The notes beneath the pieces were generated by a model. The model was not told where the DNA came from, searched no databases, and was given only the letters and a program-made list of their open reading frames with translations. A program made the translations under genes and the position numbers. Of a DNA stretch of 35,109 nt, positions 3,045 through 35,109 are shown piece by piece (position 1 is the stretch's first letter; each line of letters begins with the position of its first letter). The stretch comes from an uncultured Dehalococcoidaceae bacterium (lineage in GTDB: Bacteria > Chloroflexota > Dehalococcoidia > Dehalococcoidales > RBG-16-60-22): NCBI GenBank assembly GCA_964652725.1, contig CAZZAU010000001.1:1-35109 (forward strand). The letters are read 5' to 3'.

Positions 3045-3060
3045 GCAACGGAGGTTTATA

Positions 3061-4252: not shown

Positions 4253-5095
4253 GTGATTCAAACCAGGGATGCCGAGCAGGCCGATGGCTATTCGCTGAGC
4301 ATCGTCATTCCGGTCAAAGACGAAGCAGACCACATCGGAGACCTGATATCGAGAATCAAGGCCAGCATGAACGGGCATCCCTATGAGATAATAGTGGTCG
4401 ATGACGGGTCGAGGGATGGAACGGAGGAGGTTCTGGCTAAATACGGGGCTCTGGTCATTTCCCATCCAGAGAATCTGGGCAAAGGCGCAGCCATGAAGTC
4501 CGGGGCGGCCAGGGCCACGGGCGATATAGTGGTCTTTATGGATGGTGATGGCGCTCACGAACCACAGGATATTGCCCGGCTCATCGAGCCTATTCTGGAA
4601 CGGAAGGCGGATTTGGTGATCGGCTCCCGGGCATTGCCGGACTCAAGGGTGGTGGTCTCTCCGGGGGGGAGGAGGCTGTGCAACGCGCTGGCCTCCTTCA
4701 TTATTTCTGCGCTAATTTCCCTTCCCCTGCTGAGCTCCGCAGCATTAAAAGGCGTGGTCCGCTATGGCAACAACAATCATAACGGACACCATTCCGCCAA
4801 TTCGAACCACAACGGCAAACGCAAATGGATAGGTATCACTGACTGCACAAGCGGCCTCCGGGCCATAAACAGGGAAAGCTGGCACAAGCTGGGGCTCGTT
4901 TCTCAGGGTTTCCAGATCGAGGCTGAAATGATATATGAAGCGGCCAGGCACCGGCTTAGCATAGCCGAGGTACCCATCAGTTGCAACTGGGACAGCCGTT
5001 TCTCCCATCTTTCCGTGGTCAGAGATGGCCTGAAGACCGCCAATCTGCTCGCCAGGAAGCTGCTGAGAACGAACGGGGCAAAGCCGGCGAGTTAG
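4253..5095 (+). CDS. GT2 glycosyltransferase, DPM1/polyprenyl-phosphate glycosyltransferase-like, with a His/Asn-rich insertion
   Basis: SIVIPVKDEADHI, YEIIVVDDGSRDGT, NLGKGAAMKSG, VVFMDGDGAHEP, DCTSGLRAI and EVPISCNW follow the DPM1-like GT2 layout. GTG start follows AGGAGG. Confidence 0.8.
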   Translation: MIQTRDAEQADGYSLSIVIPVKDEADHIGDLISRIKASMNGHPYEIIVVDDGSRDGTEEVLAKYGALVISHPENLGKGAAMKSGAARATGDIVVFMDGDGAHEPQDIARLIEPILERKADLVIGSRALPDSRVVVSPGGRRLCNALASFIISALISLPLLSSAALKGVVRYGNNNHNGHHSANSNHNGKRKWIGITDCTSGLRAINRESWHKLGLVSQGFQIEAEMIYEAARHRLSIAEVPISCNWDSRFSHLSVVRDGLKTANLLARKLLRTNGAKPAS

Positions 5096-13374: not shown

Positions 13375-14481
13375 ATGAGAATCGTCTTTCTGTCGCACTG
13401 GTTTCTGCCGAACAAGATAGGCGGCAGCGAGCTGGCGCTCTACCGCTTCGCCCGGGAGATGGCGGAGCGGGGGCATGAATGTCACGTTATCACCCGGCTC
13501 GATAGCATAGACCGCCCCGCCTTTGAAATCATGGAAGGAATCCACGTGCACCGCCTGAAGAAACCAGGTGCCCGGATTATCGGCCCCTTTCTGTACGGAC
13601 TAAAAGCGGCGCGCCTGGTGCGGCGGCTGGTGCCGGACGTCGTCCACGAGCAGGCCATACAGGGGCTGGGACCCATAGTAAAGCGGTTCTGCCAGGCTCC
13701 GTACATCTTGTTTCCCAGGAGCACCGGGTTCTGCGCCCCGGCAAACGTCTATGCCAGGCTTGTAGCCAGGACCACGTTGAGACACGCCGACGTCCTTCTT
13801 GGCCAGAGCGGAAGCATCGCCATGGAAATGCGGCGGCTTTGCGGGAAAGAGGTTTCAGTGATACCGAACGGGGTGGAGCCGGAGAGATTTGCGGGCATTT
13901 CGAAGCCAGCTGCCAGAAAGAAGCTGGGGATAGCCGATGGTGAGAAAGTACTGCTATGCGTGGCCAACCTGCACCGCATAAAGGGACATTGCTATCTCCT
14001 CCAGGCGATGGAGACGGTAGCGGAAAGCGTCCCCGGCGTTCGCCTGTTCCTGGTGGGCAGAGACCATAACGATGGCAGCATACCCGCTACGGCATTGGAG
14101 AGGCTCAAGCAGCACATCGTCCTGACTGGCCAGGTGCCGCCGGAAGAAATTCCCGTCTATATGGCGGCAGCGGATATCTTTGTGCTGCCGAGCCTGAGCG
14201 AAGGAGTGCCCAACGTGCTGCTGGAGGCGATGGCAGCGGGCCTGCCGGTGGTGGCTACCGACGTGGGAGGAGTGCCGGAGCTGATTGCCGACGGCGAGAA
14301 CGGGTTGCTGGTGAAGCCGGGAAACAGTGAACAGCTGGCGGCAAAGCTCCTCGCTCTGCTGAAGGACGATGCCCTCCGGGAGAGAATGGCGCTACGCAAC
14401 CGGCGAGAAGCCAAAAAGTACGCCTGGCCTGCCATCATCGACTCTCTGGAGAAGGTCTATCTGGAGACAGGTAGGCGATGA
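13375..14481 (+). CDS. GT4-family glycosyltransferase
   Basis: MRIVFLSHWFLPNKIGGSE N-terminus. FVLPSLSEGVPNVLLEAMAAGLPVVATDVGGVPELIADGENGLLV. Confidence 0.85.
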   Translation: MRIVFLSHWFLPNKIGGSELALYRFAREMAERGHECHVITRLDSIDRPAFEIMEGIHVHRLKKPGARIIGPFLYGLKAARLVRRLVPDVVHEQAIQGLGPIVKRFCQAPYILFPRSTGFCAPANVYARLVARTTLRHADVLLGQSGSIAMEMRRLCGKEVSVIPNGVEPERFAGISKPAARKKLGIADGEKVLLCVANLHRIKGHCYLLQAMETVAESVPGVRLFLVGRDHNDGSIPATALERLKQHIVLTGQVPPEEIPVYMAAADIFVLPSLSEGVPNVLLEAMAAGLPVVATDVGGVPELIADGENGLLVKPGNSEQLAAKLLALLKDDALRERMALRNRREAKKYAWPAIIDSLEKVYLETGRR

Positions 14482-16294
14482 CGGCGCCGCTATCGTACAG
14501 GCGGGAAAGCCCCTGCTCGCTAAGCAACTGCAGCAGGTCATAGTCCAGCTTCAGAAATCCCCGCCCGCCCGGAAACACGTGGTTCAGGTTATAGTCCCGT
14601 ATCACCAGCAGACCGCCGGCATTTTCGAAATCCTTTTCAATCAGATATCCAATGGATGATTCCCTGGGCAGACCGTCATCGAAGAGATGATTGTAAGGGA
14701 TTTCCACCATAATCCGGCCCCGGTACAGTGATGAGATGGTCCGGGAGGCGGTAACCTCGGAATGGGTAAAGGCAGTCCGGTAGGTGGTACTCTGAACATA
14801 GACGGGACTATCACGGTTGGCATGCGGGCCGGCCACCTGCAGAAATGTCAGAGCACCGGTGATAACCAGGAGCGCGGCGTACTTCCAGACGCCGCCGCGG
14901 AGCGAGTTGACCAGAAGGATAACTCCCACCGCCACCAGACTTCCGAGCAGAATCTGGGAGTAGGCGAGGAAGCGGTCCGGCAAAAGGTCTCCCAGCCGAA
15001 AAGCCCCGCCGGCGAAAGCTACGGCGGTGGCGACAATCCCCGCCGAGGCAAAGCAGAAACGGTACGGGCTTCTCACACCGCGGGAGAGTAAGGCAAGAAT
15101 GCCGATTATGGCGAGGAAGTAGTACAGCAGCAGACCGCTGCGGCTGAGCACCAGTTCCCCGTAGCTGACCGCTCTTGTCAGGTACTGGCTGGTTATCAGC
15201 AGCGCCGATTGCTGCTCCATCTGAAAAGCGTACTTGATGCTCCAGACGATGTGCCTGAACTGGCCGGAGATGTACGCCCAGTAAGCCAGCGGGACGACCG
15301 CAGAGAAAATGACCAGGTAGGCGTTGACCAGAGGTCTTCCGGCGTGAAACAACCATCCGTAGGTCTTCTGTCCCCCCCACGAGGCCAGGAAGATAAGGCA
15401 GATGGCAAATGAGGCCAGGGCATGGGTCATCACGGTGAGCGCCACCAGGGAGAAGGTCAGGGCGGTGAACCTGGCGTCTCGCTTTCCGGAAAAGACCAGA
15501 TAGGTCAGCAAGATGACCAGAGCGATGCCCAGGGTATTGGGTATGGCCCAAAGGCCGTTGTGGATGTACCATCCCGCCGTGCCCACCATCAGCGCGGACA
15601 AAAGACCGACTCGGAAGTCGAACAGGCGCTCGCCGATAACGAAAACGAAAGCCACTATCGCCAGGTAGAAGGTGCCGATGTACAGTATTCCGGCGAACTT
15701 GTAGCTCAGGCCGGTCAGAAGGGAAGCGGTGCCTATGCCGAAAGGCATGACCGGCATATCGGCGTACACGTAGGTGGGCGCAATACGGCCGGTGGCGAGC
15801 ATCTGCATTACCGCCTCGGCGTGCCCCCAGACATCGATGCCGTTCAGGGAGGGAAACATTATCTGAGGCACCCATTGCAAAGCCATAGCCAGCAGCAGTA
15901 TCTTCGCCAGGCAAAAGCGAATATGTGCCCGGCTATCCGGAATGAGCACCGCCTCCAGGGCCAGAAGGGCGGCCAGAACGGCGACGGCAACGAAGTAGGC
16001 AGTGGGTCGAACATAAGACGCTGAGCGGGAGATGAGAAGCAACATACTGTAAGTGAAGATGGTGAAGAAAGCGATGTTGAACAGCAGATATGCCCGCCGA
16101 CCAAGGCGAAAACCGGCAGGCGCCGTTGTGAAGGGGCTCCTGCGGGCAACGGCCAGGTAGGTTACGCACGCCAGCGCCAGCGCTATACCAAACTCGCCGT
16201 ACTTTGCCTGCCACAGTACCAGCAACAGAACGGCACCCAGCGCCAGCCCGGCCAGCGCGCTTACCCTGTCCAGGTTGTCAAACAGTCTGCTCAC
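14435..16294 (-). CDS. large polytopic membrane protein, GT-C-like candidate, with C-terminal soluble domain
   Basis: 619-aa ORF with a GTG start preceded by GGAGA. The first ~500 aa are almost entirely hydrophobic helices; the last ~120 aa are soluble. Loop motif GIDVWGH is shared with the 19741-21204 protein. No family assignment possible without a search. Confidence 0.6.
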   Translation of the reverse strand: MSRLFDNLDRVSALAGLALGAVLLLVLWQAKYGEFGIALALACVTYLAVARRSPFTTAPAGFRLGRRAYLLFNIAFFTIFTYSMLLLISRSASYVRPTAYFVAVAVLAALLALEAVLIPDSRAHIRFCLAKILLLAMALQWVPQIMFPSLNGIDVWGHAEAVMQMLATGRIAPTYVYADMPVMPFGIGTASLLTGLSYKFAGILYIGTFYLAIVAFVFVIGERLFDFRVGLLSALMVGTAGWYIHNGLWAIPNTLGIALVILLTYLVFSGKRDARFTALTFSLVALTVMTHALASFAICLIFLASWGGQKTYGWLFHAGRPLVNAYLVIFSAVVPLAYWAYISGQFRHIVWSIKYAFQMEQQSALLITSQYLTRAVSYGELVLSRSGLLLYYFLAIIGILALLSRGVRSPYRFCFASAGIVATAVAFAGGAFRLGDLLPDRFLAYSQILLGSLVAVGVILLVNSLRGGVWKYAALLVITGALTFLQVAGPHANRDSPVYVQSTTYRTAFTHSEVTASRTISSLYRGRIMVEIPYNHLFDDGLPRESSIGYLIEKDFENAGGLLVIRDYNLNHVFPGGRGFLKLDYDLLQLLSEQGLSRLYDSGAVIAYLSPDRPSPESR

Positions 16295-19624: not shown

Positions 19625-19653
19625 ATTATAGCGCAGATGCCCCTGGCTCTCAA
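19625..19653 (-). promoter_or_regulatory. sigma70-like promoter of the minus-strand operon (dehydrogenase to membrane protein)
   Basis: Minus strand: TTGAGA (19648-19653), 17 nt, TATAAT (19625-19630). About 50 nt upstream of the ATG at 19574, which is preceded by GAGGT. Confidence 0.55.
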
Positions 19654-19673
19654 GGGCTTCCGCAGCGGCCTGG

Positions 19674-19702
19674 TTGAGGCCATGGTTGCCGGAAGGTATA
19701 AT
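19674..19702 (+). promoter_or_regulatory. sigma70-like promoter of the 19741 operon, back to back with the previous one
   Basis: TTGAGG (19674-19679), 17 nt, TATAAT (19697-19702). About 39 nt upstream of the GTG at 19741. Confidence 0.55.
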
Positions 19703-19740
19703 AATGGGCAAATGAAGGATTACGGAAGCGGCGGAAAGAG

Positions 19741-21204
19741 GTGAATCTGCACCGGTATGAGAAACTGGCACCCCTGGCCCTGGTTCCGGTGCTGGCCCTG
19801 GCCTACTATGTGGCGTACATTCCGCACCTCACCTACCCCTATCCCGTGCACATAGACGAGTGGGTGCATCTGGCCTTCTCCAGGGCGATGCTCGAGGCGG
19901 GCAGCACTTCCTTCACCGACCCCTTTCTGGGCCAGTCCGCCGTTGGAGCGGGGAGTCCCCACCTTGAGGCCGGCTTTCACCTGTTCTGGGGGGTGTTCCA
20001 GCGTGTCAGCGGACTTTCCTGGATGGCTATCTACCGTTACTTTCCGGGTATTATCTTCGTACTGACGGTGGCCTCGGTGTACGTGCTGGGGCGGCGGAAA
20101 GGCTTCGGGTGGGAAGCCGCCTTTTTCACCGCTTTGATACCCACCACCGTGGGGATTCTAGGCCCCGGCTTCCTGGTGCCCCTGGCTACAGGTCTGTTCT
20201 TCACCCCCCTCGCTCTTTTCCTGGCTTTTTACCTGAGAAGCCCCCTGGCCTGGATAACCCTCTTCATCTTTATGAGCCTGCTGCTGGTAATGCACGCGCC
20301 TTCGGCGGTCTTCATCGCCCTGATTATTGGTCCATACGCGTTGCTGAATCTGAAAGGAGATTTCAGGCGCGCCCTGGGCCTCGGCCTGGCGCTGCTGGTC
20401 CCTTTTCTGCTACCTTTCCCCTGGATTTTCGATCTGCTGCTCCCCACGGCAAAGAGCGTCCTCGTCCCGCACCCTCTTACTCCCTACGTGGACTTTCCGC
20501 GGGTGCTCCGGGAGTACGGTTACCTGCCGGCAACGTTCTGCCTGGTGGGAACCGCCGTTTTGTTCCTGAAGGGTGGCAGGGAGAATACCGCGCTGGTGCT
20601 GGGTCTGCTGGGGGTGCTGCTGGTGCTGGTGGCGCGCTACACCTTCAACTACGGCATACACATTCTCTACGCTCGCGGGCTTATGTTCATGATGATGATG
20701 GTGGCAGTGGTGGGCGGGGCCGGTCTGGCGACATTCCGGAAACTCGATGCGCCGTTTCTTTCATCCTTCAGAGAAGGAAAACCCGTTCTGGCCAGGGCCA
20801 CCGGTGTGCTGTTGTTACTGGCTGTTTCGGCAGCGACGCTGGCCGTTGCGCTGCCGCAGCGCCTGAACACGCCCTACTATCATATGATCGACCACCAGGA
20901 GTATCAGGACTTCGTCTGGATGCGTGATAACCTGGGCGGCTCCTACCGGAAGGCCATACTGGACCCCTGGAAGGCAACCGCATTCACCGCCATCACCGGC
21001 AAGTTCGCCTATACCAGGATTCACATGGCGCCTACGCCCGTAGACCAGAAAGCCTACGCTTTCCTCGACAGCGGCTGCGAAGATACCGGGTTCCTGAGGC
21101 AGAACGGCATCTCCATCATATACAATCGCTCCGGGTGCCGGAATCCCGACCTTGTGGAGGTGAAGGAGAACATCTACCTCCTGAAGGAAGAAGGCCCGGA
21201 GTGA
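19741..21204 (+). CDS. polytopic membrane protein, GT-C-like candidate (paralog of 14435-16294)
   Basis: 487-aa ORF with a GTG start after AAGAGG. Many hydrophobic helices and a soluble C-terminal ~110 aa. An acidic/His motif HIDEWVH follows the first helix. Confidence 0.6.
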   Translation: MNLHRYEKLAPLALVPVLALAYYVAYIPHLTYPYPVHIDEWVHLAFSRAMLEAGSTSFTDPFLGQSAVGAGSPHLEAGFHLFWGVFQRVSGLSWMAIYRYFPGIIFVLTVASVYVLGRRKGFGWEAAFFTALIPTTVGILGPGFLVPLATGLFFTPLALFLAFYLRSPLAWITLFIFMSLLLVMHAPSAVFIALIIGPYALLNLKGDFRRALGLGLALLVPFLLPFPWIFDLLLPTAKSVLVPHPLTPYVDFPRVLREYGYLPATFCLVGTAVLFLKGGRENTALVLGLLGVLLVLVARYTFNYGIHILYARGLMFMMMMVAVVGGAGLATFRKLDAPFLSSFREGKPVLARATGVLLLLAVSAATLAVALPQRLNTPYYHMIDHQEYQDFVWMRDNLGGSYRKAILDPWKATAFTAITGKFAYTRIHMAPTPVDQKAYAFLDSGCEDTGFLRQNGISIIYNRSGCRNPDLVEVKENIYLLKEEGPE

Positions 21205-21226
21205 ACTGAGCAAACGTGCTTCTTTG

Positions 21227-21235
21227 TGGTATAAT
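21227..21235 (+). promoter_or_regulatory. extended -10 element (TGgTATAAT) upstream of the GtrB-like GT2
   Basis: TGGTATAAT read at 21227-21235 in the 71-bp gap. The -35 is poor (TGAGCA at 17 nt). Confidence 0.4.
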
Positions 21236-21275
21236 TCGGGCACGCAAGTCTGCCCAGGGAAAAGCAGGACGGGAG

Positions 21276-22190
21276 ATGAACAAACAACACGAAACGGGAC
21301 AAAAAGTCCTGGTGGCAATGCCCGCCTACAACGAGGAGAAATATATCGGCAGCCTGGTAGTGCAGGCCCGGCAGTATACGGACGAGGTGCTGGTGGTGGA
21401 TGACGGCAGCACAGACCGTACTGCCCGCGTTGCCGAGCTGGCGGGCGCCACCGTCATCAGACACGGCAAGAACCGGGGCTATGGGGCCAGCATCCAGAGC
21501 ATACTGACCGAGGCCAGAAAAAGGGCTCCGGACGTGCTGGTGCTGATGGACGCCGACGGCCAGCATGACCCCGGACAGATAAGCGCGCTCATCGGGGCGA
21601 TACGCAGCGGCAATGACCTGGCCGTGGGCTACCGCGTCATCGGCCGCGGGGAGATTCCGGCGCACCGGCGAATCGGGCAGAAGGTGCTGACCTTCTTCAG
21701 CGGTGTGCTCTCCAGGAGCGGTCTGTCCGATACCGAGTGCGGCTTCCGCGCTTTCTCGGGCAAGGCCCTGGGGGTGCTTCAGCCAGAGGAAAAGGGCATG
21801 GCAGTGTCCGCAGAAACCATCTCCGAGGCGGCAAGGAAGGGACTCAAAATTACGCAGGTGCCCGTCTCCGCCATCTACACCGGTGATGGTTCCACCTTCA
21901 ATCCCGTCAGACACGGCGTAGACGTGCTAAACCGTGTGCTGGTGATGATTTCCGAGCGGAGGCCACTGCTCTTTTTCGGGGTCGTGGGAGCCGTGCTCAT
22001 CGCTCTGGGGCTGGCAGCCGGGGTAGTGGTGGTGCGGTTGCTGTTTGCCTCAGAGGTCCTGCATGTGGGCACCGCCCTGCTGTCCATGATGCTCATCACC
22101 ATCGGTGTGTTGAGCATCTTCGCCGGGATAATACTGAATGTGCTGGTGAAGCGCATAAAAGAAGCAGGCCTGGCCGATACCCCGGACTGA
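21276..22190 (+). CDS. GT2 polyprenyl-phosphate glycosyltransferase, GtrB/CsbB/ArnC-like, with two C-terminal TM helices
   Basis: VLVAMPAYNEEKYIG, EVLVVDDGSTDRT, GKNRGYGASIQ, VLMDADGQHDP, DTECGFRAF. Two C-terminal helices follow: LLFFGVVGAVLIALGLAAGVVVV and LLSMMLITIGVLSIFAGIILNVL. ATG at 21276 chosen; the ORF opens at 21216. Confidence 0.8.
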   Translation: MNKQHETGQKVLVAMPAYNEEKYIGSLVVQARQYTDEVLVVDDGSTDRTARVAELAGATVIRHGKNRGYGASIQSILTEARKRAPDVLVLMDADGQHDPGQISALIGAIRSGNDLAVGYRVIGRGEIPAHRRIGQKVLTFFSGVLSRSGLSDTECGFRAFSGKALGVLQPEEKGMAVSAETISEAARKGLKITQVPVSAIYTGDGSTFNPVRHGVDVLNRVLVMISERRPLLFFGVVGAVLIALGLAAGVVVVRLLFASEVLHVGTALLSMMLITIGVLSIFAGIILNVLVKRIKEAGLADTPD

Positions 22191-22208: not shown

Positions 22209-23051
22209 TCACTCCACCCGCACCTGGAGAAAGAGCTGCCGGTATGCAGCGGTCTGTCCCTGCTTGGAAAGGACAAACTCGACCTTCTGACTGCCGGAGC
22301 GCTCCGGGGTAAAGCTTATCTCCTGCCGCCATTCTTCGCCGTGTCCCAGATTGATAGGCCCGGCCTGCCACCGGGCTTCTCCCTCCAGCTTCATTTCCAC
22401 CCGGTACTGCTCTGTCCGCCTTTCATGATTGATGATGACCAGTACCAAGTCAGCCGTATCGCCGGTATCAAGGGCGAGAGGGTAGTCTATCATGGCCCCG
22501 CCCGGTCCCAGCAGGTAGAACTCGGTGAACCGCTCGGACGTTTTGGGGGTAACCACATAATAGACCAGGCTGGCCGCGGCGGCCAGCAGTACCAGTGCTA
22601 GGAGTCCGGTCAGGACGCGGTCCGTTAGGCCATACCGTTGCCAGAAGGTCAGATGTGGGGTGAAGGCTGGGCAGTATCTCTCCGTTTCCTGAAGTCGCCC
22701 CCGCCGGTACCAGGCTACGGCTGCTCCCGCGGTTACCAGCAGCGCCATCGCCGTTGCCAGGGGCAGCAAACTGAGGCCCCACGGGGAAAAATTGAGCGCC
22801 AGGCCGGCCAGGGCTGTTGCCACGACACTCAGCACCGGGACCATCCCTGCGCGTTCGATGCTGGTGAGAGACGTTCTCCCGGGGAAGATGGCCAGAGTGA
22901 TCAAATAGCCCGGATAGAGCAGTACCAGGGGCAATCCCAGGGCGGTTCTCAGGACGCCGGAGGGAACCACGGCGATGAGAAGCAGTGAGATGAGCGCCGC
23001 GATGCCTGCCAGCAAAATGTCCGCATTGGCTTTGAGTCCGGTGAGTCGCAT
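22209..23051 (-). CDS. DUF1616-like membrane protein (4 TM helices plus C-terminal beta-rich domain)
   Basis: This is the C-terminal 280 codons of the 837-aa ORF, starting at the ATG at 23049-23051. DILLAGIAALISLLL...GLPLVLLYPGYLITLAIFPGR...SIERAGM...LALNFSPWGLSL matches my memory of the DUF1616 N-terminal pattern. After a fourth helix comes a soluble domain, TEFYLLGPGG...LVLVIINHERRTEQYRVEMKL. Confidence 0.6.
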   Translation of the reverse strand: MRLTGLKANADILLAGIAALISLLLIAVVPSGVLRTALGLPLVLLYPGYLITLAIFPGRTSLTSIERAGMVPVLSVVATALAGLALNFSPWGLSLLPLATAMALLVTAGAAVAWYRRGRLQETERYCPAFTPHLTFWQRYGLTDRVLTGLLALVLLAAAASLVYYVVTPKTSERFTEFYLLGPGGAMIDYPLALDTGDTADLVLVIINHERRTEQYRVEMKLEGEARWQAGPINLGHGEEWRQEISFTPERSGSQKVEFVLSKQGQTAAYRQLFLQVRVE

Positions 23052-24110: not shown

Positions 24111-24818
24111 ATGCAGGCGGTTATCCTGGCGGGAGGTCTGGGGACGAGGCTGGGCAGGCTCACCGCCAGTATGCCCAAGGTGATGGTGCCTATCCGGCGT
24201 AAGCCGTTCCTTTATTATCTGCTGCGCCTGCTCAAGAGCCGGGGGATGAAACACATCGTGCTGTGTACCGGCTATCTGGGGCATGTGGTGCGGGAATATT
24301 TCGGCGATGGCGGGACGCTGGGTCTCAGCATAAAGTACAGCGAGGAGAGAGAACAGTTGCTGGGCACCGGAGGTGCTCTGAAGCAGACCCGAGCCCTCCT
24401 GGATGAAAGCTTCTGGGTGATAAATGGAGATACCTACTTGCCAGCCGATTACGAGAGGGCTGGCGGGGTTTTCCTGGGTCAGGGACTCAAGGCGTTGATG
24501 ATGGTCTATGACAACGGGATAGATACGGGGGTGAAGAACAACGTGGCGCTGGACGGAAGGCAGAGAGTGGTCAGGTATGACAAAAAGGATAGCAGCCCAG
24601 AGATGAAGTATGTGGAAGCCGGGGTGCTGGCATTGCGGCGTGAGACGCTGGACATTATCGATGAAGGGCAGCCAAGCTCTCTGGAAGAGTCGATTTACCA
24701 GAGCTTGATAGGAGAGGGGCAAATGGGGGCTTTGGTAACAAAGGAAAGGTTCTATGACATCGGCACGCCCGAGCAGAGCCGGGCGTTTGAGGCCTTTATC
24801 GGAGAGGCGGTAGAATGA
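24111..24818 (+). CDS. hddC: sugar-1-phosphate nucleotidyltransferase, D-glycero-D-manno-heptose 1-phosphate guanylyltransferase-like
   Basis: MQAVILAGGLGTRLGRLT...PKVMVPIRRKPFLYYLL, GTGGAL, INGDTY. About 235 aa, and adjacent to hddA-like and gmhA-like genes. Confidence 0.7.
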   Translation: MQAVILAGGLGTRLGRLTASMPKVMVPIRRKPFLYYLLRLLKSRGMKHIVLCTGYLGHVVREYFGDGGTLGLSIKYSEEREQLLGTGGALKQTRALLDESFWVINGDTYLPADYERAGGVFLGQGLKALMMVYDNGIDTGVKNNVALDGRQRVVRYDKKDSSPEMKYVEAGVLALRRETLDIIDEGQPSSLEESIYQSLIGEGQMGALVTKERFYDIGTPEQSRAFEAFIGEAVE

Positions 24819-25795
24819 TTATTACCCGCACCCCTTTTCGTATCAGCTTCGCCGGCGGCGGCACGGACTTCCGCGAGTTCTACCGCCAACAGCCCGGAGC
24901 GGTGGTCAGCACAGCGATAACCAGATATATGTACATCATCGTCAACCGGCGCTTCACTGACGCCATCCGGGTGAGCTACTACGCCAAAACAGAAATCGTG
25001 GACCGCGTGGAAGACATCCAGCACCCCATCGTCAGGGAGGCGCTCAAGCTGGTGGGCATAAGCAAGGGGATAGAGATCGCCTCGGTGGCGGACATTCATG
25101 GCGGGTCCGGCCTGGGATCGTCGGGGAGCTTTACCGTGGGCCTGCTCAATGCCCTGTATGCCTACCAGGGCACCCTCAGGTCCGCGGAGGAACTTGCCCG
25201 TGAAGCCTGCCGTATCGAGATAGACATCCGCGGCGAACCCATCGGCAAGCAGGACCAGTATATCGCCGCCCATGGCGGCTTTCGTTTTCTGCAGTTCAAC
25301 CCGGACGAGACCGTGTTCACCCAACCCATCTTATGGTCGTCACAGAACAAGGAGGAACTGCTCCAGAACCTGCTGCTCCTTTACACCGGGGAGGTGCGGG
25401 ATGCCAGCAGTATCCTGAGAGAGCAGCGTGACAGCATTAACCAAACGGAGAAAATGGATTGCCTGTGCCGTCTGCGCGACATCGCTGTGCAGTTGCGCGG
25501 TAGCCTGAACGATAATGCCGGGCCCGACGTCATGGGGGAGGCGTTGCATCAGGGCTGGTTGCTCAAGAAGCAGCTGGCCAGCGCGGTCAGCAACAACAGG
25601 ATAGACAGGTACTACCAGCGGGCGCTTGACGCGGGCGCGCTCGGAGGCAAGGTGCTGGGGGCGGGCGGAGGCGGTTTCCTGCTGCTATACTGCCCGCAGG
25701 CAAAGCAAGCACAGATAAAAACAGCGCTGAGCGACTTGCGGCCCCTGGAATTTTCCTTTGAGCCTGAGGGCAGCAAGATCATCTACGTAATCTAA
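24815..25795 (+). CDS. hddA: GHMP kinase, D-glycero-D-manno-heptose 7-phosphate kinase-like
   Basis: MIITRTPFRISFAGGGTDFREFY N-terminus is typical of HddA. GHMP motif GGSGLGSSGSF. Start overlaps the hddC stop (ATGA at 24815-24818). Confidence 0.7.
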   Translation: MIITRTPFRISFAGGGTDFREFYRQQPGAVVSTAITRYMYIIVNRRFTDAIRVSYYAKTEIVDRVEDIQHPIVREALKLVGISKGIEIASVADIHGGSGLGSSGSFTVGLLNALYAYQGTLRSAEELAREACRIEIDIRGEPIGKQDQYIAAHGGFRFLQFNPDETVFTQPILWSSQNKEELLQNLLLLYTGEVRDASSILREQRDSINQTEKMDCLCRLRDIAVQLRGSLNDNAGPDVMGEALHQGWLLKKQLASAVSNNRIDRYYQRALDAGALGGKVLGAGGGGFLLLYCPQAKQAQIKTALSDLRPLEFSFEPEGSKIIYVI

Positions 25796-25811
25796 CGCGG
25801 GAGGTGCGCTG

Positions 25812-26387
25812 GTGAGCTCTGGAGGGGACTACATAGAAGGATACCTGGACAGGGTGCGTTCCTGCCTAAATGAGATATCAGAACAGGACATAGCGGGTAT
25901 AGTTGACATAATATTTCAAGCCTGGCGGGACAATAAATGCGTGTTCATCATAGGCAACGGCGGCAGCGCCACCACGGCGGCGCATTTCGCCCGCGACCTG
26001 AACATCGGCACGGCGACGGCGGGCAAGAAGCGCCTCAAAGCATTGAGCCTGGCGGACAATATCGCCACGGTGACGGCGCTGGCGAACGACGTGGGCTACC
26101 AGCATATTTTCACGAAGCAACTGATGGGAAGTCTGGACGCCGGGGACGTGGTCATAGGCATCAGCGCTTCGGGCAACTCGCCGAACCTGCTTGAAGGCAT
26201 CGAGTACGCCAGAAGCCAGGGGGTGGTGACGGCGGGGTTCCTCGGGTTCGGTGGCGGCAGGATGAAAGGACTGGTAGACAGGGCAATCGTCCTTTCCTGC
26301 AAAGAGTACGGGCCGGTGGAGGATGCCCACCTAATCCTCGAGCATATCATCTGCGCCCTGGTGAAAGAAAGAATCGCCGGTGATTAG
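25812..26387 (+). CDS. gmhA: SIS-domain phosphoheptose isomerase
   Basis: FIIGNGGSATTAAHFARDL and ISASGNSPN. About 190 aa. GTG start with GGAGG 7 nt upstream. Confidence 0.75.
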   Translation: MSSGGDYIEGYLDRVRSCLNEISEQDIAGIVDIIFQAWRDNKCVFIIGNGGSATTAAHFARDLNIGTATAGKKRLKALSLADNIATVTALANDVGYQHIFTKQLMGSLDAGDVVIGISASGNSPNLLEGIEYARSQGVVTAGFLGFGGGRMKGLVDRAIVLSCKEYGPVEDAHLILEHIICALVKERIAGD

Positions 26388-29625: not shown

Positions 29626-30776
29626 ACGCACACCCCGGCTATGACGTGCTGGACTCGCTGCCTGTCGCGACCCTGCGAAAAGCCATAGGCGGGTTGCTGG
29701 GGCACGAGGAGCGGGCGGAGATTGAGCGGCGTCTGACCGGGCAGGGAATAGGGCAGGGCAAGCGTTTCACCTTCTTCAACTACGGCAGGAATGCCCTGTA
29801 TACCCTGCTCAGGGAGAGGTGCGCCGGCAGCGAAGTCATCTTTCCCGGCTTCATCTGCCCGTCGCTTGCCTTGGCCGCGCTAAGGGCGGACGCCAGGCCT
29901 TGGTTTGTCGATGTCAGTCTGGACGATTTCAACCTCGACGCAAGCCTGTTGTCGCCGGAGCTGCTGGAAAGGGCGGGCGCTTTGCTGGTTAATCATACCT
30001 TCGGTGTTCCGGCAGACGTGGACAGGATACGGAGCCGTCCGGGGGGGGAAAGAGTCTATCTGGTCGAAGATATCGCCCAGGCCCTTTTCTCCCGGTGTGA
30101 CGGCTCGCCCGCAGGCGCCCGCGGTGACGCCGTGCTGGTGAGCATGTACAAGCAGGTGCCCAATATTCACGGGGCGGTGATTATCTCGGAGCCGGGGCTG
30201 GAAAACAGAGGCACGGATTGCGGCGGGCCGGGCAGACTGTTGCTGCTGACCAGGGGGCCGCACCAGTCTCTTTTGCGCTATGTGCGCCGCAGGCGAGCAC
30301 TTCCCGCGCAGGGTGGGGAAAAAAGCAGGCCGGCACCGGCGCGCCCATCCCGTCTGGCGCAGGCCATCTTCGCCGCCTCCCTGCCCGACCTGGAAGCTGT
30401 GGTCGAAGGGCGGCGGGCTATACTCCGCCACTACCAGGACAGGGCGCGGGCAAGCGAATACCTGGTGCCGCAACAGATAAGAGAGGGCAAAGAACCGTCC
30501 TGTTTCAACTTCAGCGTACGGTTGCTCCCGGAACTCGCTCATGTCAGGGATGAAGCCGTGCTGGCGTTGCGGAGAAAAGGCATCTTCTGCGACCGCCTGT
30601 GGCACGATTCCCCGGTAGCGCTCGGCGTTTTCAGGGACTATCTTGCTGGGGATTGCCCTAACTCGAGGCTGCTGGCGCGCTCGGTGATAAATCTCCCCGT
30701 AAAGGCGAGCTACGACGAGCATGATGTGGGTTATCTCTTCGATTCCGTGGAAGAGGCTGTGCGCAGGCTGGTCTGA
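29622..30776 (+). CDS. DegT/DnrJ/EryC1-like PLP-dependent aminotransferase
   Basis: FNYGRNALYTLL, VIFPGFICPS, LLVNHTFGVPADVD, VYLVEDIAQA, and VSMYKQVPNIHGAVII with a candidate PLP lysine. ATG at 29622 overlaps the previous stop (ATGA). The ORF opens at 29478. Confidence 0.6.
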   Translation: MNAHPGYDVLDSLPVATLRKAIGGLLGHEERAEIERRLTGQGIGQGKRFTFFNYGRNALYTLLRERCAGSEVIFPGFICPSLALAALRADARPWFVDVSLDDFNLDASLLSPELLERAGALLVNHTFGVPADVDRIRSRPGGERVYLVEDIAQALFSRCDGSPAGARGDAVLVSMYKQVPNIHGAVIISEPGLENRGTDCGGPGRLLLLTRGPHQSLLRYVRRRRALPAQGGEKSRPAPARPSRLAQAIFAASLPDLEAVVEGRRAILRHYQDRARASEYLVPQQIREGKEPSCFNFSVRLLPELAHVRDEAVLALRRKGIFCDRLWHDSPVALGVFRDYLAGDCPNSRLLARSVINLPVKASYDEHDVGYLFDSVEEAVRRLV

Positions 30777-31555
30777 TGGACGGCAGGGCCAATGTTGACA
30801 AGTGGCAGCGCTACTGGAGCGCCAGCCGGCCTTCGGTAACGTTACAGGCATACCACCGCCAGGTGGCAGAGAGAATCGTGGGTAGGTTGGGCCGCCTGTT
30901 CCCGCCCGCTGCGGAAGAGACAGAACACCCCCTCAGACTTCTGGATGCGGGCTGCGGGCAGGGTAACCTGACCGTCATGCTGGCCGGAAAGACGGGGTAT
31001 GAGACAGCTGCGCTAGACATCATCGCGGAGCCGCTGCGGCACTGTCATCAGCTGGCCGGGGAGCGGCAGATTGACCGCGTCAGTGTTGTCAGGGCCAGCG
31101 TTTTCCGGATGCCCTTCCGGGACGGTACCTTTGACATTGCTGTCAGCACTGGCAGCGAGAGCGCGGCGGCCTACCCGGGAGCAGCAGAGGAAGTGATAAG
31201 GGTGGTGAAGAAAGGCGGCACCCTGTTCATCGATTTCACGGCTATGCCCAATCTCTACCAGCCGGTGCGCTCGTTGAAAGACCTTTTCCGGTACCTGCAG
31301 GCAAGGCGAACCGTGGCCCGGGGCGGAAAGACGAAACGCTTCCATTATGGTAAACTTGGACTCAAGGAACGATTTGAACGGCGGCTCGGCCTGAGAATCA
31401 GGCAGACGTGGTATATGAATACGGCTCCGCCCTGGGGAGGGGTGAGGGCTCGCTTGCTCTTCGAGAAGAGCGCGGGCAGGTGGCTGGGGCCTCTTCTTGC
31501 CAGAACGGTGCTGGTGGAGATGGAGAACAGCAAGAAGGATGAATGCGGTTATTAG
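30776..31555 (+). CDS. class I SAM-dependent methyltransferase
   Basis: LLDAGCGQGNLTVML, MPFRDGTFDIAVS, VKKGGTLFIDF. The ATG shares a base with the previous TGA (TGATG at 30774-30778). Confidence 0.7.
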   Translation: MDGRANVDKWQRYWSASRPSVTLQAYHRQVAERIVGRLGRLFPPAAEETEHPLRLLDAGCGQGNLTVMLAGKTGYETAALDIIAEPLRHCHQLAGERQIDRVSVVRASVFRMPFRDGTFDIAVSTGSESAAAYPGAAEEVIRVVKKGGTLFIDFTAMPNLYQPVRSLKDLFRYLQARRTVARGGKTKRFHYGKLGLKERFERRLGLRIRQTWYMNTAPPWGGVRARLLFEKSAGRWLGPLLARTVLVEMENSKKDECGY

Positions 31556-33979: not shown

Positions 33980-35109
33980 ATGCGCGTTTTGATGCTCAGC
34001 TACGACAAAGCGCTCGTCGCCGACAATAGTATAGGCGATGCCCTGCAAAGGCACCGGCATTACGCCGCCTGCCTGGACCGCCTAGACGTGGTAGTACCCT
34101 GCCCGGGCGGGAAAAAGCGCTCCGCCATCGAGCTGGACGGCAGGCTGGCCATCCACCCCAGCCACGGCCCCAAACCGCTTGCGTGGCTGCGGGCCTATCA
34201 AAAAGCCCGGACGGTCTGCCGGGCCGGCGGCATGGACCTGGTCATTACCCAGGACGCTCTGCTGGGCTGCCTGGGCGTGATGCTGAAACGGGAGTTCGGG
34301 ACCGGGCTTATCGTTAACGCCTTTGCCCTGGACATTTTCAGTCGCGTCTGGCTGGAGGAAAAGCTGCTGCACCGGCTGTACGCGGTTCTGATGCGCCAGG
34401 CATTGCGGCGCGCGGACCTGGTCCGTACCGATGGCACCGGTGACCGGAAAAGCCTCATTGAGGAGCTGGGGTTGCCTGCTGATAAGGTGATAACACTGCC
34501 GATGGTGCCCAGCCCGGAGAATATCACACGGTTCACCCGGGCCGACGGCACGGCGGTGCGGGGGGAGTTGCTGAACGGCAGGTATGACAGTCTGGTGCTT
34601 TTCGTGGGGATGCTGATCAGGCAAAAGAACCTGCCGAATCTGCTGGCGGCAGCCCGCCTGGTGCTTGCTGACCATTCCCGGACCCTGTTCGTCATTATCG
34701 GGGATGGGCCCGAGCGGGGACATCTGGAAATGCTGGCCCGGGAGCTGGGCATAGAAGACAATGTGCGTTTTGCGGGCTTGATGTCCTATGACCTGCTGCC
34801 CGCATATTATGCCGCCTGCGATTTGTTCGTCCTGCCTTCCTGGTACGAAGGCTTCGCCCGGGTGCTGATGGAGGCGGCGTTCGCCCGGAAACCGATAGTT
34901 GCCACGGACGTGAGCGGCGTTTCCGACCTTATTGAGGACGGGCGCAGCGGGTACATCGTGGCGGTGAACAGCCCGGAACAGCTTGCCGCAAAGATAGGGC
35001 GGCTGCTGGATGACCCCGCAACGGCCCGGCGGATGGGAATGAGTGGATATGAGCGAGCAATGGAATACTGCGATTTCGATAACAATATCGAGAAGCTGGT
35101 CGCGGTCTG
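33980..35109 (+). CDS. GT4-family glycosyltransferase, 3'-truncated by the window edge
   Basis: Not in the supplied ORF track because it has no stop in the window. My manual translation from the ATG at 33980 is open to 35109: MRVLMLSYDKALV...FVGMLIRQKNL...VIIGDGPERGHL...FVLPSWYEGFARVLMEAAFARKPIVATDVSGVSDLIEDGRSGYIV. Confidence 0.8.
   Translation, partial: MRVLMLSYDKALVADNSIGDALQRHRHYAACLDRLDVVVPCPGGKKRSAIELDGRLAIHPSHGPKPLAWLRAYQKARTVCRAGGMDLVITQDALLGCLGVMLKREFGTGLIVNAFALDIFSRVWLEEKLLHRLYAVLMRQALRRADLVRTDGTGDRKSLIEELGLPADKVITLPMVPSPENITRFTRADGTAVRGELLNGRYDSLVLFVGMLIRQKNLPNLLAAARLVLADHSRTLFVIIGDGPERGHLEMLARELGIEDNVRFAGLMSYDLLPAYYAACDLFVLPSWYEGFARVLMEAAFARKPIVATDVSGVSDLIEDGRSGYIVAVNSPEQLAAKIGRLLDDPATARRMGMSGYERAMEYCDFDNNIEKLVAV

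What the first reader, a model, noticed from the sequence alone, without database searches (positions are those of the whole stretch)
19674..22190. GT-C-like membrane protein paired with a GtrB/CsbB-type polyprenyl-phosphate GT2: an extracytoplasmic glycosylation module without a visible flippase
The GT2 at 21276-22190 has the DPM1/GtrB catalytic layout plus two C-terminal transmembrane helices, the architecture of GtrB, ArnC and CsbB. These enzymes load a sugar on undecaprenyl phosphate. In known systems (GtrABC, CsbB/YfhO, GtlA/GtlB, ArnC/ArnT, Ppm1/PMT) such enzymes feed a GT-C enzyme that acts outside the membrane. Here the GT2 lies directly downstream of the 487-aa GT-C-like protein, under one promoter plus an internal extended -10. 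No small 4-TM GtrA/GtcA-like flippase gene is present in the window. A second soluble DPM1-like GT2 (4253) and a second GT-C-like protein (14435) suggest two such decoration steps.
Basis: partly seen in the sequence, partly recalled or inferred. Interest (0 to 1): 0.65.

Follow-up and report, generated by a model that had tools for sequence, protein, structure and literature searches.

The report
Unannotated membrane glycosyltransferase beside lipid-sugar synthase
Two neighbouring genes in a cell-surface sugar cluster of a Dehalococcoidia-type bacterium encode a lipid-phosphate sugar synthase and a membrane glycosyltransferase from a large unannotated family, but the transferase's usual neighbours in related genomes are a DUF1616 membrane protein and often an archaeal-type N-glycosylation enzyme, not this synthase.

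Summary
19741-21204 encodes a 487-aa polytopic protein with no Pfam or NCBIfam match. Its AlphaFold model matches only GT-C glycosyltransferases (STT3/PglB/AglB, AftA, ArnT, ALG12, PMT). 21276-22190 encodes a GT2 with the DPM1/GtrB/ArnC/AglJ layout (PAYNE, DDGSTD, DADGQH) and two C-terminal TM helices. No GtrA-like, Wzx, MATE or ABC gene lies in the 35 kb.

In 83 related loci, almost all from Dehalococcoidia MAGs, the orthologous GT2 is adjacent to the GT-C gene in 3 and within 10 kb in 8. From the GT2 side, 0 of 5 ortholog loci have the GT-C nearby. The GT-C gene's usual neighbour is DUF1616, here at 22209-23051. It lies within 300 nt in 43 of 83 loci, and its N-terminal TM bundle is fused to the GT-C in some relatives. 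An archaeal-type AglB is adjacent in 8 loci.

A missing flippase is ordinary, because it is unlinked in characterised Gram-positive systems. My best reading is an AglD/AglS-like or GtrB/GtrC-like step: a polyprenyl-P-hexose is made inside, and the GT-C with DUF1616 transfers the sugar to a surface glycan outside. I rate this a new variant of a known kind, of moderate interest.

The parts
19674..19702 (+). Sigma-70-like promoter match (TTGAGG-17-TATAAT) upstream of the GT-C gene. A mirror-image match on the minus strand (19653-19625) faces the divergent UDP-sugar dehydrogenase gene.
   Evidence: a consensus scan only: 5 sites found against 1.1 expected in shuffles for the region.
19741..21204 (+). 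487-aa polytopic membrane protein, a member of a large unannotated GT-C-fold family with a P-x-H-x-D-E-W/Y motif in the first outer loop. D39, H185 and R312 are conserved in at least 223 of 226 relatives (invariant across the 63-sequence alignment A2). A small C-terminal alpha/beta domain carries a co-varying Cys pair.
   Evidence: no Pfam or NCBIfam hit; 811 hits; 779 clusters at 50% identity; conservation; Cys446/Cys466 both present in 110, neither in 92, one only in 21; AF2 pLDDT 66.6, pTM 0.67; top 40 Foldseek PDB hits are all GT-C enzymes; hhalign 84% against the AglB family.
21227..21235 (+). Extended -10-like element TGGTATAAT in the 71-nt gap between the two genes.
   Evidence: Read directly from the sequence. 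The two-hexamer scan did not report it. Function untested.
21276..22190 (+). 304-aa GT2 of the polyprenyl-phosphate sugar synthase class (DPM1/GtrB/ArnC/AglJ layout): PAYNEE, DDGSTD and DADGQH motifs, and two C-terminal TM helices.
   Evidence: orthologues at 63-78% identity in Dehalococcoidia; collinear with E. coli GtrB/YfdH, 21% identity; motif-by-motif alignment with Pyrococcus DPMS and ArnC.
22209..23051 (-). DUF1616 membrane protein (280 aa): about five TM helices followed by an extracytoplasmic CARDB-like beta-sandwich. It is convergent with the GT2 gene. It is the most frequent neighbour of the GT-C family, and its N-terminal TM bundle is fused to the GT-C in some relatives.
   Evidence: PF07760, 2.3e-57; C-terminal domain matches CARDB 2kl6/3idu, E 5e-7; fusions, e.g. 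P0139 at 109.5 bits; within 300 nt in 43 of 83 loci.
14435..16294 (-). 619-aa, 13-TM protein with no family hit. It is probably a distant GT-C relative of the 487-aa protein, with an N-terminal extension of about 115 aa.
   Evidence: pairwise E 9e-6; the D and H of the motifs are kept. Not detected by HMM or hhalign. A homologue in L046 lies next to DUF1616 and a GT-C homologue.
4253..5095 (+). Soluble DPM1-like GT2 (280 aa), a second candidate polyprenyl-P-sugar synthase or primer enzyme.
   Evidence: AglJ 117.8 bits and PpgS 96 bits, N-terminal half only; no TM segments.

Best explanation
[quoted passage not shown] They sit inside a large cell-surface glycan cluster of a Dehalococcoidia-type bacterium (inferred from the homologues' source names); cultivated Dehalococcoides lack peptidoglycan genes and carry an S-layer.

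Proposed steps:
1. Inferred from family membership. On the cytoplasmic face, the GT2 at 21276-22190 transfers a hexose from a nucleotide sugar to a polyprenyl (possibly partly saturated, dolichol-like) phosphate.
2. Inferred. An unlinked flippase moves the lipid-linked sugar to the outer face.
3. Fold shown, chemistry inferred. The 487-aa GT-C enzyme binds the lipid-phosphate sugar in the groove formed by its first outer loop. The conserved H37-x-D39-E40-W41, H185 and R312 act as catalytic or phosphate-binding residues. The enzyme transfers the sugar to an extracytoplasmic acceptor.
4. Inferred from neighbourhood and fusions. The adjacent DUF1616 protein is an accessory subunit. Its TM segment or segments dock on the GT-C, and its CARDB-like outer domain helps hold the acceptor.

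In related genomes the GT-C gene often lies immediately downstream of an archaeal-type AglB. The acceptor is therefore most likely a protein-linked (S-layer-type) glycan, as in the Haloferax AglD/AglR/AglS step. The GT2 is better seen as a general, well-conserved supplier of lipid-linked sugar than as a dedicated partner of this GT-C.
For: GT2 class:
- PF00535, and top NCBIfam hits AglJ, PpgS, Dol-P-hexose transferase and ArnC.
- PDB hits to DPMS and ArnC, with DAD-x-QH aligned and the alignment running through the TM hairpin.
- Collinear with E. coli GtrB.

GT-C fold:
- All top 40 Foldseek hits are GT-C enzymes, E down to 3e-7, TM-score 0.52-0.61.
- hhalign gives 84% probability against the Dehalococcoidia AglB family over TM1, the first outer loop and on to about TM6.
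- One relative hits PMT_2 at 1e-6, and IMG names one relative Stt3.
- H37, D39, H185 and R312 are kept in at least 223 of 226 relatives.
- A co-varying Cys pair points to a disulfide-bonded, extracytoplasmic C-terminal domain.
- Other family members carry C-terminal CBM_4_9, Laminin_G_3 or PKD domains.

DUF1616 link:
- Within 300 nt in 43 of 83 loci and within 10 kb in 53.
- It is the top neighbour in unbiased clustering, in 51 of 83 loci.
- Its N-terminal TM bundle is fused to the GT-C in P0139 and P0170, above the Pfam cutoff.

AglB link:
- STT3 lies within 300 nt in 8 of 83 loci, mostly directly upstream on the same strand.
- It passes the TIGR04154 cutoff.
- Compact AglB / GT-C / GT2 / DUF1616 groups occur in L023, L042, L055 and L057.

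Lipid link: a geranylgeranyl-reductase family gene lies within 4 kb in 14 of 83 loci.

Same arrangement as the window: GT-C followed by the GT2 in L055.

The Haloferax paradigm is taken from PMC3871713.
Against: - The GT-C/GT2 adjacency is rare: 3 of 83 loci adjacent and 8 of 83 within 10 kb. None of 5 GT2-ortholog loci has the GT-C nearby.
- No AglB is encoded in the 35-kb window.
- No flippase is identified.
- The AF2 model has only moderate confidence (pLDDT 66.6).
- The GT2 falls far below every NCBIfam equivalog cutoff (139.7 bits against 325 for AglJ), so neither the sugar nor the role (donor or primer) is defined.
- There is no biochemical evidence of any kind.
Confidence: 0.5

Rival explanations
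1. Primer model. The GT2 is an AglJ-like initiating enzyme. It makes polyprenyl-P-hexose, and the cluster's many GT4 and GT2 enzymes then build an oligosaccharide on it. The GT2 does not supply the GT-C with a monosaccharide donor. The GT-C (and/or the 619-aa protein) acts later on the flipped product, or on something else.
For: - The best NCBIfam hit is AglJ over its full length.
- No phosphoglycosyltransferase, or any other obvious initiating enzyme, lies in the 35-kb cluster.
- GT2 orthologues sit at the head of NDP-heptose/GT4 operons that also lack a phosphoglycosyltransferase (L087, L089).
- Linkage to the glycan cluster is more consistent than linkage to the GT-C.
- The AglJ precedent is described in PMC3871713.
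Against: - The AglJ score is far below the cutoff (139.7 against 325).
- An orthologue stands alone among housekeeping genes in L088, which fits a general lipid-sugar supplier.
- The window also has a second DPM1-like GT2 (4253) that could be the primer.
- An initiating enzyme may simply lie outside the window.
Confidence: 0.25
2. Transferase or ligase model. The 487-aa GT-C with DUF1616 is an STT3-related enzyme that moves a complete lipid-linked glycan en bloc onto a protein or another polymer, like an oligosaccharyltransferase, ligase or polymerase. The neighbouring GT2 is then just another gene of the same glycan cluster.
For: - The closest structural and profile relatives are STT3/PglB/AglB.
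- The window has no Wzy, WaaL/PglL or AglB, so the two GT-C-like proteins are the only candidates for an extracytoplasmic transfer step.
- Relatives carry carbohydrate-binding-type outer domains.
Against: - There is no WWDYG motif and no PF02516 hit. The family has DPWK in its small C-terminal domain instead.
- In many genomes the gene lies directly next to a true AglB, so it does not replace AglB.
- Foldseek also matches monosaccharide-transferring GT-Cs (AftA, ArnT, ALG12, PMT).
Confidence: 0.15
3. The 487-aa protein is not a glycosyltransferase but a transporter or a structural membrane protein, and the GT-C resemblance comes from a mediocre model.
For: - The model has pLDDT 66.6.
- The window protein has no hit in Pfam, NCBIfam or PDB sequences.
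Against: - Forty consecutive GT-C hits and nothing else with E below 0.2.
- Independent profile similarity to AglB.
- Nearly invariant acidic, His and Arg residues at loop and TM-end positions, as expected for an enzyme.
- A consistent glycan-gene context.
Confidence: 0.04

Closest known systems
Three-component / multi-component transmembrane glycosylation systems (GtrA-GtrB-Gtr*, CsbB-GtcA-YfhO, GtlA-GtlB, CsdA-CsdB; PMC8035078, PMC11127046)
   Same: A membrane-anchored GT-A/GT2 polyprenyl-P-sugar synthase lies next to a polytopic GT-C enzyme. The GT2 here is collinear with E. coli GtrB and ArnC. The flippase need not be linked to the pair.
   Different: The GT-C has no detectable sequence similarity to E. 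coli YfdI, which is annotated as a serotype-specific Gtr* glucosyltransferase, and no PMT_2 or YfhO Pfam hit. The GT-A/GT-C pairing is not conserved across relatives. The usual partner is DUF1616, which is not part of any described system. No GtrA-like gene is visible.
Haloferax volcanii AglD / AglR / AglS step of N-glycosylation (PMC3871713; PMC4973528)
   Same: A DPM1-type synthase charges a separate lipid phosphate. A polytopic enzyme then adds that sugar to the glycan already transferred by AglB. In related Dehalococcoidia loci the GT-C gene lies directly beside an archaeal-type AglB, and sometimes near a Wzx/AglR-like gene.
   Different: No sequence comparison with AglS was possible. No NCBIfam model hits the protein. 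The window itself shows no AglB. The organism is a bacterium.
STT3 / AglB / PglB oligosaccharyltransferases
   Same: These are the best structural matches (E 3e-7 to 2e-5, TM-score 0.52-0.61). hhalign gives 84% probability over the N-terminal TM core. The layout is the same: TM1, then a long first outer loop with an acidic motif, then a C-terminal outer domain.
   Different: The protein is about half the size. It lacks WWDYG and does not hit PF02516. It coexists with genuine AglB in the same operon in relatives.
Citrobacter youngae ORF12, founding member of GT136 (PMC11127046)
   Same: This is a GT-C enzyme with no similarity to existing families, recognised by predicted fold and context. Its relatives carry carbohydrate-binding modules, and it works with a lipid-phosphate sugar synthase.
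   Different: It uses a different donor pathway (PRPP-derived pentofuranose) and has a linked MATE flippase. No relationship to the present family was tested.

Membership tests
Polyprenyl-phosphate sugar synthase GT2 (DPM1 / GtrB / ArnC / AglJ class) | GT-A catalytic domain of family GT2 | tested here: met
   PF00535 at 4.6e-24, residues 13-141.
Polyprenyl-phosphate sugar synthase GT2 (DPM1 / GtrB / ArnC / AglJ class) | DxD metal and nucleotide-sugar motif followed by QH, as in Pyrococcus DPMS | tested here: met
   LMDADGQHDP aligns with VMDADLQHPP of 5mlz. PAYNEE and DDGSTDRT also align.
Polyprenyl-phosphate sugar synthase GT2 (DPM1 / GtrB / ArnC / AglJ class) | C-terminal membrane anchor (TM hairpin) after the catalytic domain | tested here: met
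   Two hydrophobic segments, at residues 257-275 and 295-313 of the stop-to-stop ORF, about 237-293 of the protein. The alignments with ArnC (9-285 against 8-290) and E. coli GtrB (10-284 against 2-287) run through them.
Polyprenyl-phosphate sugar synthase GT2 (DPM1 / GtrB / ArnC / AglJ class) | Closest relatives are lipid-phosphate-charging enzymes rather than other GT2s | tested here: met
   The top four NCBIfam hits are AglJ, PpgS, Dol-P-hexose transferase and ArnC. The top PDB hits are DPMS and ArnC.
Polyprenyl-phosphate sugar synthase GT2 (DPM1 / GtrB / ArnC / AglJ class) | Reaches the curated cutoff of a specific equivalog, which would fix the sugar and the role | tested here: not met
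   AglJ 139.7 against 325, PpgS 114 against 370, ArnC 52 against 529. Class membership holds, but no specific assignment is possible.
Polyprenyl-phosphate sugar synthase GT2 (DPM1 / GtrB / ArnC / AglJ class) | Formation of polyprenyl-P-sugar in membranes | not testable with these tools
   Needs an enzyme assay.
GT-C fold glycosyltransferases | 7-13 TM helices with an extracytoplasmic loop after TM1 that carries conserved acidic residues | tested here: met
   At least 9 hydrophobic segments. The model shows TM1 (residues 3-30) and then a loop with two helices (38-53 and 77-90). H37, D39 and E40 are kept in 224, 223 and 215 of 226 relatives.
GT-C fold glycosyltransferases | Structural similarity to solved GT-C enzymes | tested here: met
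   The top 40 Foldseek PDB hits are all GT-C enzymes, with E down to 3e-7. Caveat: model pLDDT is 66.6.
GT-C fold glycosyltransferases | Sequence membership in a described GT-C family (STT3, PMT, PMT_2, YfhO, ArnT and others) | tested here: not met
   No Pfam or NCBIfam hit for the window protein, and 0 hits of the family profile against PDB sequences. Only remote signals exist: hhalign 84% to AglB, and PMT_2 at 1e-6 in one relative and DUF6541 at 1e-5 in two.
GT-C fold glycosyltransferases | Extracytoplasmic location of the soluble domain | tested here: met
   Cys446 and Cys466 co-vary: both present in 110, neither in 92, one only in 21. This fits a disulfide bond, but the location is an inference.
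GT-C fold glycosyltransferases | Use of a lipid-phosphate-linked donor | not testable with these tools
   Needs biochemistry.
Three-component extracytoplasmic glycosylation system (Gtr / CsbB-YfhO type) | Synthase and GT-C genes genetically coupled across relatives | tested here: not met
   The orthologous GT2 is within 300 nt in 3 of 83 loci and within 10 kb in 8 of 83. From the GT2 side the count is 0 of 5.
Three-component extracytoplasmic glycosylation system (Gtr / CsbB-YfhO type) | A flippase (GtrA/SMR-like, Wzx or MATE) | tested here: not met
   None in the window. DUF1616 against E. coli GtrA gives hhalign probability 0.1%. A Wzx-like gene lies near the GT-C in 10 of 83 related loci. 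Flippases are often unlinked in known systems (PMC8035078).
STT3 / AglB / PglB oligosaccharyltransferase | PF02516 domain and the WWDYG motif in the C-terminal domain | tested here: not met
   No PF02516 hit. The alignment shows DPWK and no WWDYG. The neighbouring STT3 of related loci does have WWDYGYW and passes TIGR04154.
AglS (Haloferax Dol-P-Man:N-glycan mannosyltransferase) | Sequence similarity to AglS | not tested
   No AglS sequence was available, and the original paper is not held. No NCBIfam model hits the protein.

The most novel reading that the evidence does not exclude
The 487-aa family together with DUF1616 is a compact, STT3-related, two-part glycosyltransferase. It is a previously unrecognised protein-glycosylating or glycan-finishing enzyme of S-layer-type envelopes. 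It would have been acquired alongside archaeal-type AglB by Dehalococcoidia, and it might correspond to the kind of AglB-independent transferase still missing in some archaeal pathways, for example the Haloferax low-salt pathway (PMC11407970).
Probability: 0.12. Interest if true: 0.8.

Novelty: new variant of a known kind. Interest (0 to 1): 0.45.

Why it matters
- **The concept is textbook.**
- **The family is large and unannotated.** The GT-C here belongs to a family of 779 clusters at 50% identity with no Pfam or NCBIfam annotation. It has a sharp signature (P-x-H-x-D-E-W/Y, H185, R312).
- **It has a recurrent partner.** DUF1616 is a domain of unknown function. It is adjacent in about half of the loci and partly fused in some proteins.
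- **It sits beside archaeal-type AglB in several Dehalococcoidia.** Cultivated Dehalococcoides lack peptidoglycan genes and carry an S-layer (PMC4959059).
- **If confirmed,** this would give DUF1616 a function, add a GT-C family, and provide a handle on archaeal-style surface glycosylation in a widespread, poorly cultivated bacterial class.

Tried and rejected
1. The family profile searched against PDB sequences gave 0 hits. Only fold comparison worked.
2. DUF1616 as the missing GtrA-like flippase: hhalign against E. coli YfdG gave 0.1% probability. Many neighbouring DUF1616 genes are short forms that match only the C-terminal half (the last TM helix plus the CARDB-like domain). I dropped the idea, although a single-sequence template is a weak test.
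3. The GT-C family against the E. coli GtrS-type enzyme YfdI: no similarity.
4. AglB in the window: tblastn and an STT3 HMM found nothing.
5. The 619-aa protein as a clear family member: not detected by the family HMM or by hhalign. Only a pairwise BLASTP alignment links it, so I kept it as 'likely'.
6. The metagenome scan from the GT2 side returned mostly distant GT2s at 30-49% identity, because the MDADGQHD pattern is generic. None had the GT-C family nearby, so the scan says little about orthologues.
7. The AF2 model of DUF1616 from 7 sequences has a poorly predicted TM part (pLDDT 40-60). Only the beta-sandwich is interpretable.
8. Literature: nothing on DUF6541, PF07760 or PF20176. DUF1616 appears in one paper, only as an N-glycosylated Haloferax protein. 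No paper on AglB in Dehalococcoidia was found. The AglS paper is not held.
9. Distant family representatives could not be looked up for genomic context because of tool restrictions, and carried no taxon names.


Full report
**1. What is in the sequence**

The window is a 35-kb stretch at 55-63% GC. It is dominated by a surface-glycan gene cluster running from about 4250 to the 3' end.

- It contains six Pfam-confirmed GT4 genes plus a partial ORF at 33980-35109 that looks like a further GT4, four GT2 genes, and five Pfam-confirmed methyltransferases plus one read by eye (30776-31555).
- It also contains a B12-radical SAM enzyme, a UDP-sugar dehydrogenase, an epimerase, a DegT aminotransferase, and an NTP-transferase / GHMP-kinase / SIS set typical of NDP-heptose synthesis.
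- The 5' end holds an unrelated MoxR / DUF58 / DUF4129 operon.

The two genes of the finding are real.

- 19741-21204(+) encodes a 487-aa polytopic protein.
- 21276-22190(+) encodes a 304-aa GT2.
- The 71-nt gap between them contains TGGTATAAT at 21227-21235.
- A TTGAGG-17-TATAAT match lies at 19674-19702.
- Convergent with the GT2, 18 nt beyond its stop, is a DUF1616 gene at 22209-23051(-) (PF07760, 2.3e-57).

Named homologues of all three proteins come almost exclusively from Dehalococcoidales, Dehalococcoidia or Chloroflexota MAGs.

**2. The GT2**

- It hits PF00535.
- Its best NCBIfam matches are AglJ (139.7 bits, aligned 11-295 to model positions 2-287 of 293), PpgS, haloarchaeal Dol-P-hexose transferase and ArnC.
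- Its best PDB matches are Pyrococcus Dol-P-Man synthase and ArnC. PAYNEE, DDGSTDRT and DADGQH align with the corresponding motifs, and the ArnC alignment runs through the C-terminal TM helices.
- It is collinear with E. coli GtrB/YfdH.
- It has two C-terminal hydrophobic segments.

It is therefore a member of the polyprenyl-phosphate sugar synthase class. It reaches no equivalog cutoff, so the sugar is undefined, and so is the role: donor synthase like GtrB or AglD, or primer like AglJ. Orthologues are well conserved in Dehalococcoidia, at 63-78% identity.

**3. The 487-aa protein**

- It has no Pfam or NCBIfam hit, and the family profile finds nothing among PDB sequences.
- The family is large: 811 hits in the indexed search and 779 clusters at 50% identity in the exhaustive search.
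- An AlphaFold model (pLDDT 66.6, pTM 0.67) matches only GT-C enzymes in the PDB. The top 40 hits are STT3/PglB/AglB, AftA, AftD, DPY19, ALG12, ArnT, Pmt4, Emb and PimE, with E down to 3e-7 and query TM-scores of 0.52-0.61 for the best.
- Independent support exists. hhalign against an alignment of Dehalococcoidia AglB proteins gives 84% probability over 171 columns from TM1 through the first outer loop to about TM6. One relative hits PMT_2 (1e-6) and two hit DUF6541. IMG labels one relative Stt3.
- The motif P-x-H-x-D-E-W/Y follows TM1 in almost every representative.
- Among 226 relatives, H37 is kept in 224, D39 in 223, E40 in 215 (plus 7 Asp), E76 in 217, H185 in 223 and R312 in 224.
- Cys446 and Cys466 in the C-terminal alpha/beta domain are either both present (110) or both absent (92), and rarely single (21). 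This fits a disulfide bond and an extracytoplasmic location.
- Other family members carry C-terminal CBM_4_9-like, Laminin_G_3 and PKD domains.

I conclude that this is a GT-C-fold glycosyltransferase of an undescribed family. Its nearest relatives are the STT3 family, but it lacks WWDYG and PF02516.

**4. Is the pair conserved?**

I fetched 80 loci, one per species-level genome, around relatives of the GT-C, plus four from metagenomes. I scanned their ORFs with BLAST and HMMs. Results for the 83 non-duplicate loci:

| Neighbour of the GT-C gene | Within 300 nt | Within 10 kb |
|---|---|---|
| Orthologous GT2 | 3 (L033, L041, L055) | 8 |
| DUF1616 | 43 | 53 |
| STT3 | 8 (usually directly upstream, same strand) | 10 |

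- Unbiased clustering of all ORFs within 4 kb ranks the neighbours as follows: DUF1616 in 51 loci, epimerases in 18, DPM1-like GT2s in 16, a geranylgeranyl-reductase family protein in 14, GT4 in 13, STT3 in 11 and a Wzx-type flippase in 10.
- From the GT2 side, the closest orthologues (L085 and L086, 77% identity) have GT2 / DUF1616 / epimerase / NTP-transferase / GHMP-kinase exactly as in the window, but another GT2 in place of the GT-C upstream.
- L087 and L089 place the GT2 at the head of a heptose/GT4 operon, and in L088 it stands among housekeeping genes.
- Two MAGs (CAZBMB01 and DAOUMS01) carry both genes on different contigs.
- Three further close GT-C relatives (L171-L173) have no TM-anchored GT2 next door. 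They have a reductase of the type identified as geranylgeranyl-reductase family in L074, or a short DUF1616 gene.

Linkage is still about ten-fold above what a random 20-kb window in a 2-Mb genome would give. Four loci (L023, L042, L055, L057) show compact AglB / GT-C / GT2 / DUF1616 groups.

**5. DUF1616**

- The protein has about five TM helices and a C-terminal beta-sandwich that matches the CARDB domain of Pyrococcus PF1109 (E 5e-7).
- In several GT-C family members the 100-160-aa N-terminal extension is the DUF1616 TM bundle. P0139 scores 109.5 bits and P0170 scores 63.4 bits, against a Pfam cutoff of 31.6, matching profile positions 5-134. Weaker matches occur in P0168, P0161, P0125, P0154, P0157 and P0214.
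- Many neighbouring DUF1616 genes are short forms that match only the C-terminal half, the last TM helix plus the beta-sandwich.
- The adjacency and the fusions point to a physical partnership. An acceptor-binding accessory role is the simplest reading, because other family members carry carbohydrate-binding-type domains in cis.
- A GtrA-like flippase role found no support.
- The only literature mention is that Haloferax HVO_2173, a DUF1616 protein, is itself N-glycosylated by AglB.

**6. The AglB context**

The STT3 genes beside the GT-C relatives pass the NCBIfam cutoff for archaeal STT3 (TIGR04154). L002 scores 524.7 bits and L057 scores 605.7 bits, against a cutoff of 450. They are closest to Archaeoglobus AglB in the PDB (5.7e-46) and carry WWDYGYW. 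The window itself has no AglB, but the rest of the genome is unknown.

In Haloferax the pathway runs as follows (PMC3871713):
1. AglJ primes Dol-P.
2. AglB transfers the tetrasaccharide.
3. AglD charges a separate Dol-P with mannose.
4. AglR helps flip it.
5. AglS adds it to the protein-bound glycan.

A GT-C gene directly next to AglB, with a DPM1-type GT2 and sometimes a Wzx-like gene nearby, fits the AglD/AglR/AglS pattern best.

**7. The 'missing flippase'**

No candidate lies in the window. This is the norm in characterised Gram-positive systems. GtcA and CflA are unlinked and shared among several GT-A/GT-C pairs, and the B. subtilis YkoT/YkoS and YkcC/YkcB pairs have no known flippase (PMC8035078). 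Flippases can also be of the MATE or Wzx type (PMC11127046). The absence should therefore not be counted as unusual.

**8.

- 4253-5095 is a DPM1-like GT2 without TM segments.
- 14435-16294(-) is a 13-TM protein without family hits. Its residues 128-301 align with residues 13-195 of the 487-aa protein (25% identity, pairwise E 9e-6). The alignment matches IDVWGH to IDEWVH and THALAS to MHAPSA. HMM and hhalign do not confirm the relationship.
- A homologue in L046 lies next to DUF1616 and a GT-C relative.
- Two synthase-like GT2s and two GT-C-like proteins in one cluster are compatible with two outer-face steps, but this remains an inference.

**9. Verdict**

- The most likely mechanism (confidence about 0.5) is an extracytoplasmic sugar transfer from a polyprenyl-P-sugar by a new-family GT-C enzyme working with DUF1616, on a surface (probably protein-linked) glycan. 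The neighbouring GT2 would be a plausible but not dedicated donor synthase.
- The main rival (about 0.25) is that the GT2 primes glycan assembly, like AglJ.
- A further possibility (about 0.15) is that the GT-C acts en bloc, like an oligosaccharyltransferase or ligase.
- Shown here: gene structure, family class of the GT2, GT-C fold, conservation pattern, neighbourhood statistics and domain fusions.
- Inferred: donor, acceptor, topology, DUF1616 role, and the AglS-like placement.

Noticed in passing
L002 5209-7977, L057 6218-8557, L076 7076-9952 and other related loci (not in the window): Dehalococcoidia MAGs encode archaeal-type AglB/STT3. It passes the curated cutoff of NCBIfam TIGR04154 ('archaeosortase A system-associated'), is closest to Archaeoglobus AglB in the PDB, and carries WWDYGYW. 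It usually lies immediately upstream of the GT-C family gene. I found no paper on this.
   Followed up: partly
L074 5208-6410; L171 6417-7598; 14 of 83 related loci: A protein that passes the geranylgeranyl-reductase family cutoff in L074 (TIGR02032, 194 bits against 158.8) recurs within 4 kb of the GT-C gene. This hints at a partly saturated, dolichol-like lipid carrier. No such gene is in the window.
   Followed up: partly
Proteins P0139, P0170, P0168, P0161 (N-terminal ~130 aa); P0189, P0209, P0128 (C-terminal extensions): Some GT-C family members are fused to the DUF1616 N-terminal TM bundle. Others carry C-terminal Laminin_G_3, PKD or CBM_4_9-like domains. DUF6541 (PF20176) weakly matches across both the DUF1616-like and GT-C parts, so it may be a related fused family.
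   Followed up: partly
window 4253-35109: About 31 kb of glycan-synthesis genes contain no phosphoglycosyltransferase, Wzx, Wzy, ABC transporter or O-antigen-ligase-type gene. The only polytopic proteins are the two GT-C-like proteins, DUF1616 and two TM-anchored GT2s.
   Followed up: partly
window ~5170-6135 (+): A third GT2 has three or four C-terminal hydrophobic segments. Its best NCBIfam hits are MftF-like or EpsD-like rather than DPM1-like, and its role is unclear.
   Followed up: partly
window ~6140-7586 (+): A B12-binding radical SAM enzyme sits inside the glycan cluster, next to three SAM methyltransferases. It may carry out C-methylation or another unusual sugar modification.
   Followed up: no
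window 24111-26387 (+): An NTP-transferase, a GHMP kinase and a SIS-domain isomerase lie in a row, as in GDP-glycero-manno-heptose pathways. The HAD phosphatase seen in related loci (L001, L087, L089, L173) is absent here.
   Followed up: no
window 403-4032 (+): An unrelated DUF58 / 10-TM DUF4129 / MoxR AAA+ ATPase operon flanks the glycan cluster on the 5' side.
   Followed up: no
window 19625-19702: Back-to-back promoter-like sites (minus strand TTGAGA-17-TATAAT, 11 of 12; plus strand TTGAGG-17-TATAAT, 10 of 12) lie in the 166-nt divergent gap between the UDP-sugar dehydrogenase gene and the GT-C gene.
   Followed up: no
L064 (JBEKIG010000019.1, labelled Nitrososphaeria archaeon) versus L063 and L065: The GT-C match has the same score, identity and query range (415 bits, 45%, residues 13-480) as in contigs labelled Dehalococcoidia, and L064 and L065 share a downstream GT2 match. 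The archaeal label is probably a binning error.
   Followed up: no
L173 15511-17169: A PEP mutase (phosphonate synthesis) lies at the end of a related glycan cluster next to the GT-C/DUF1616 pair. This suggests phosphonate-decorated glycans in some relatives.
   Followed up: no
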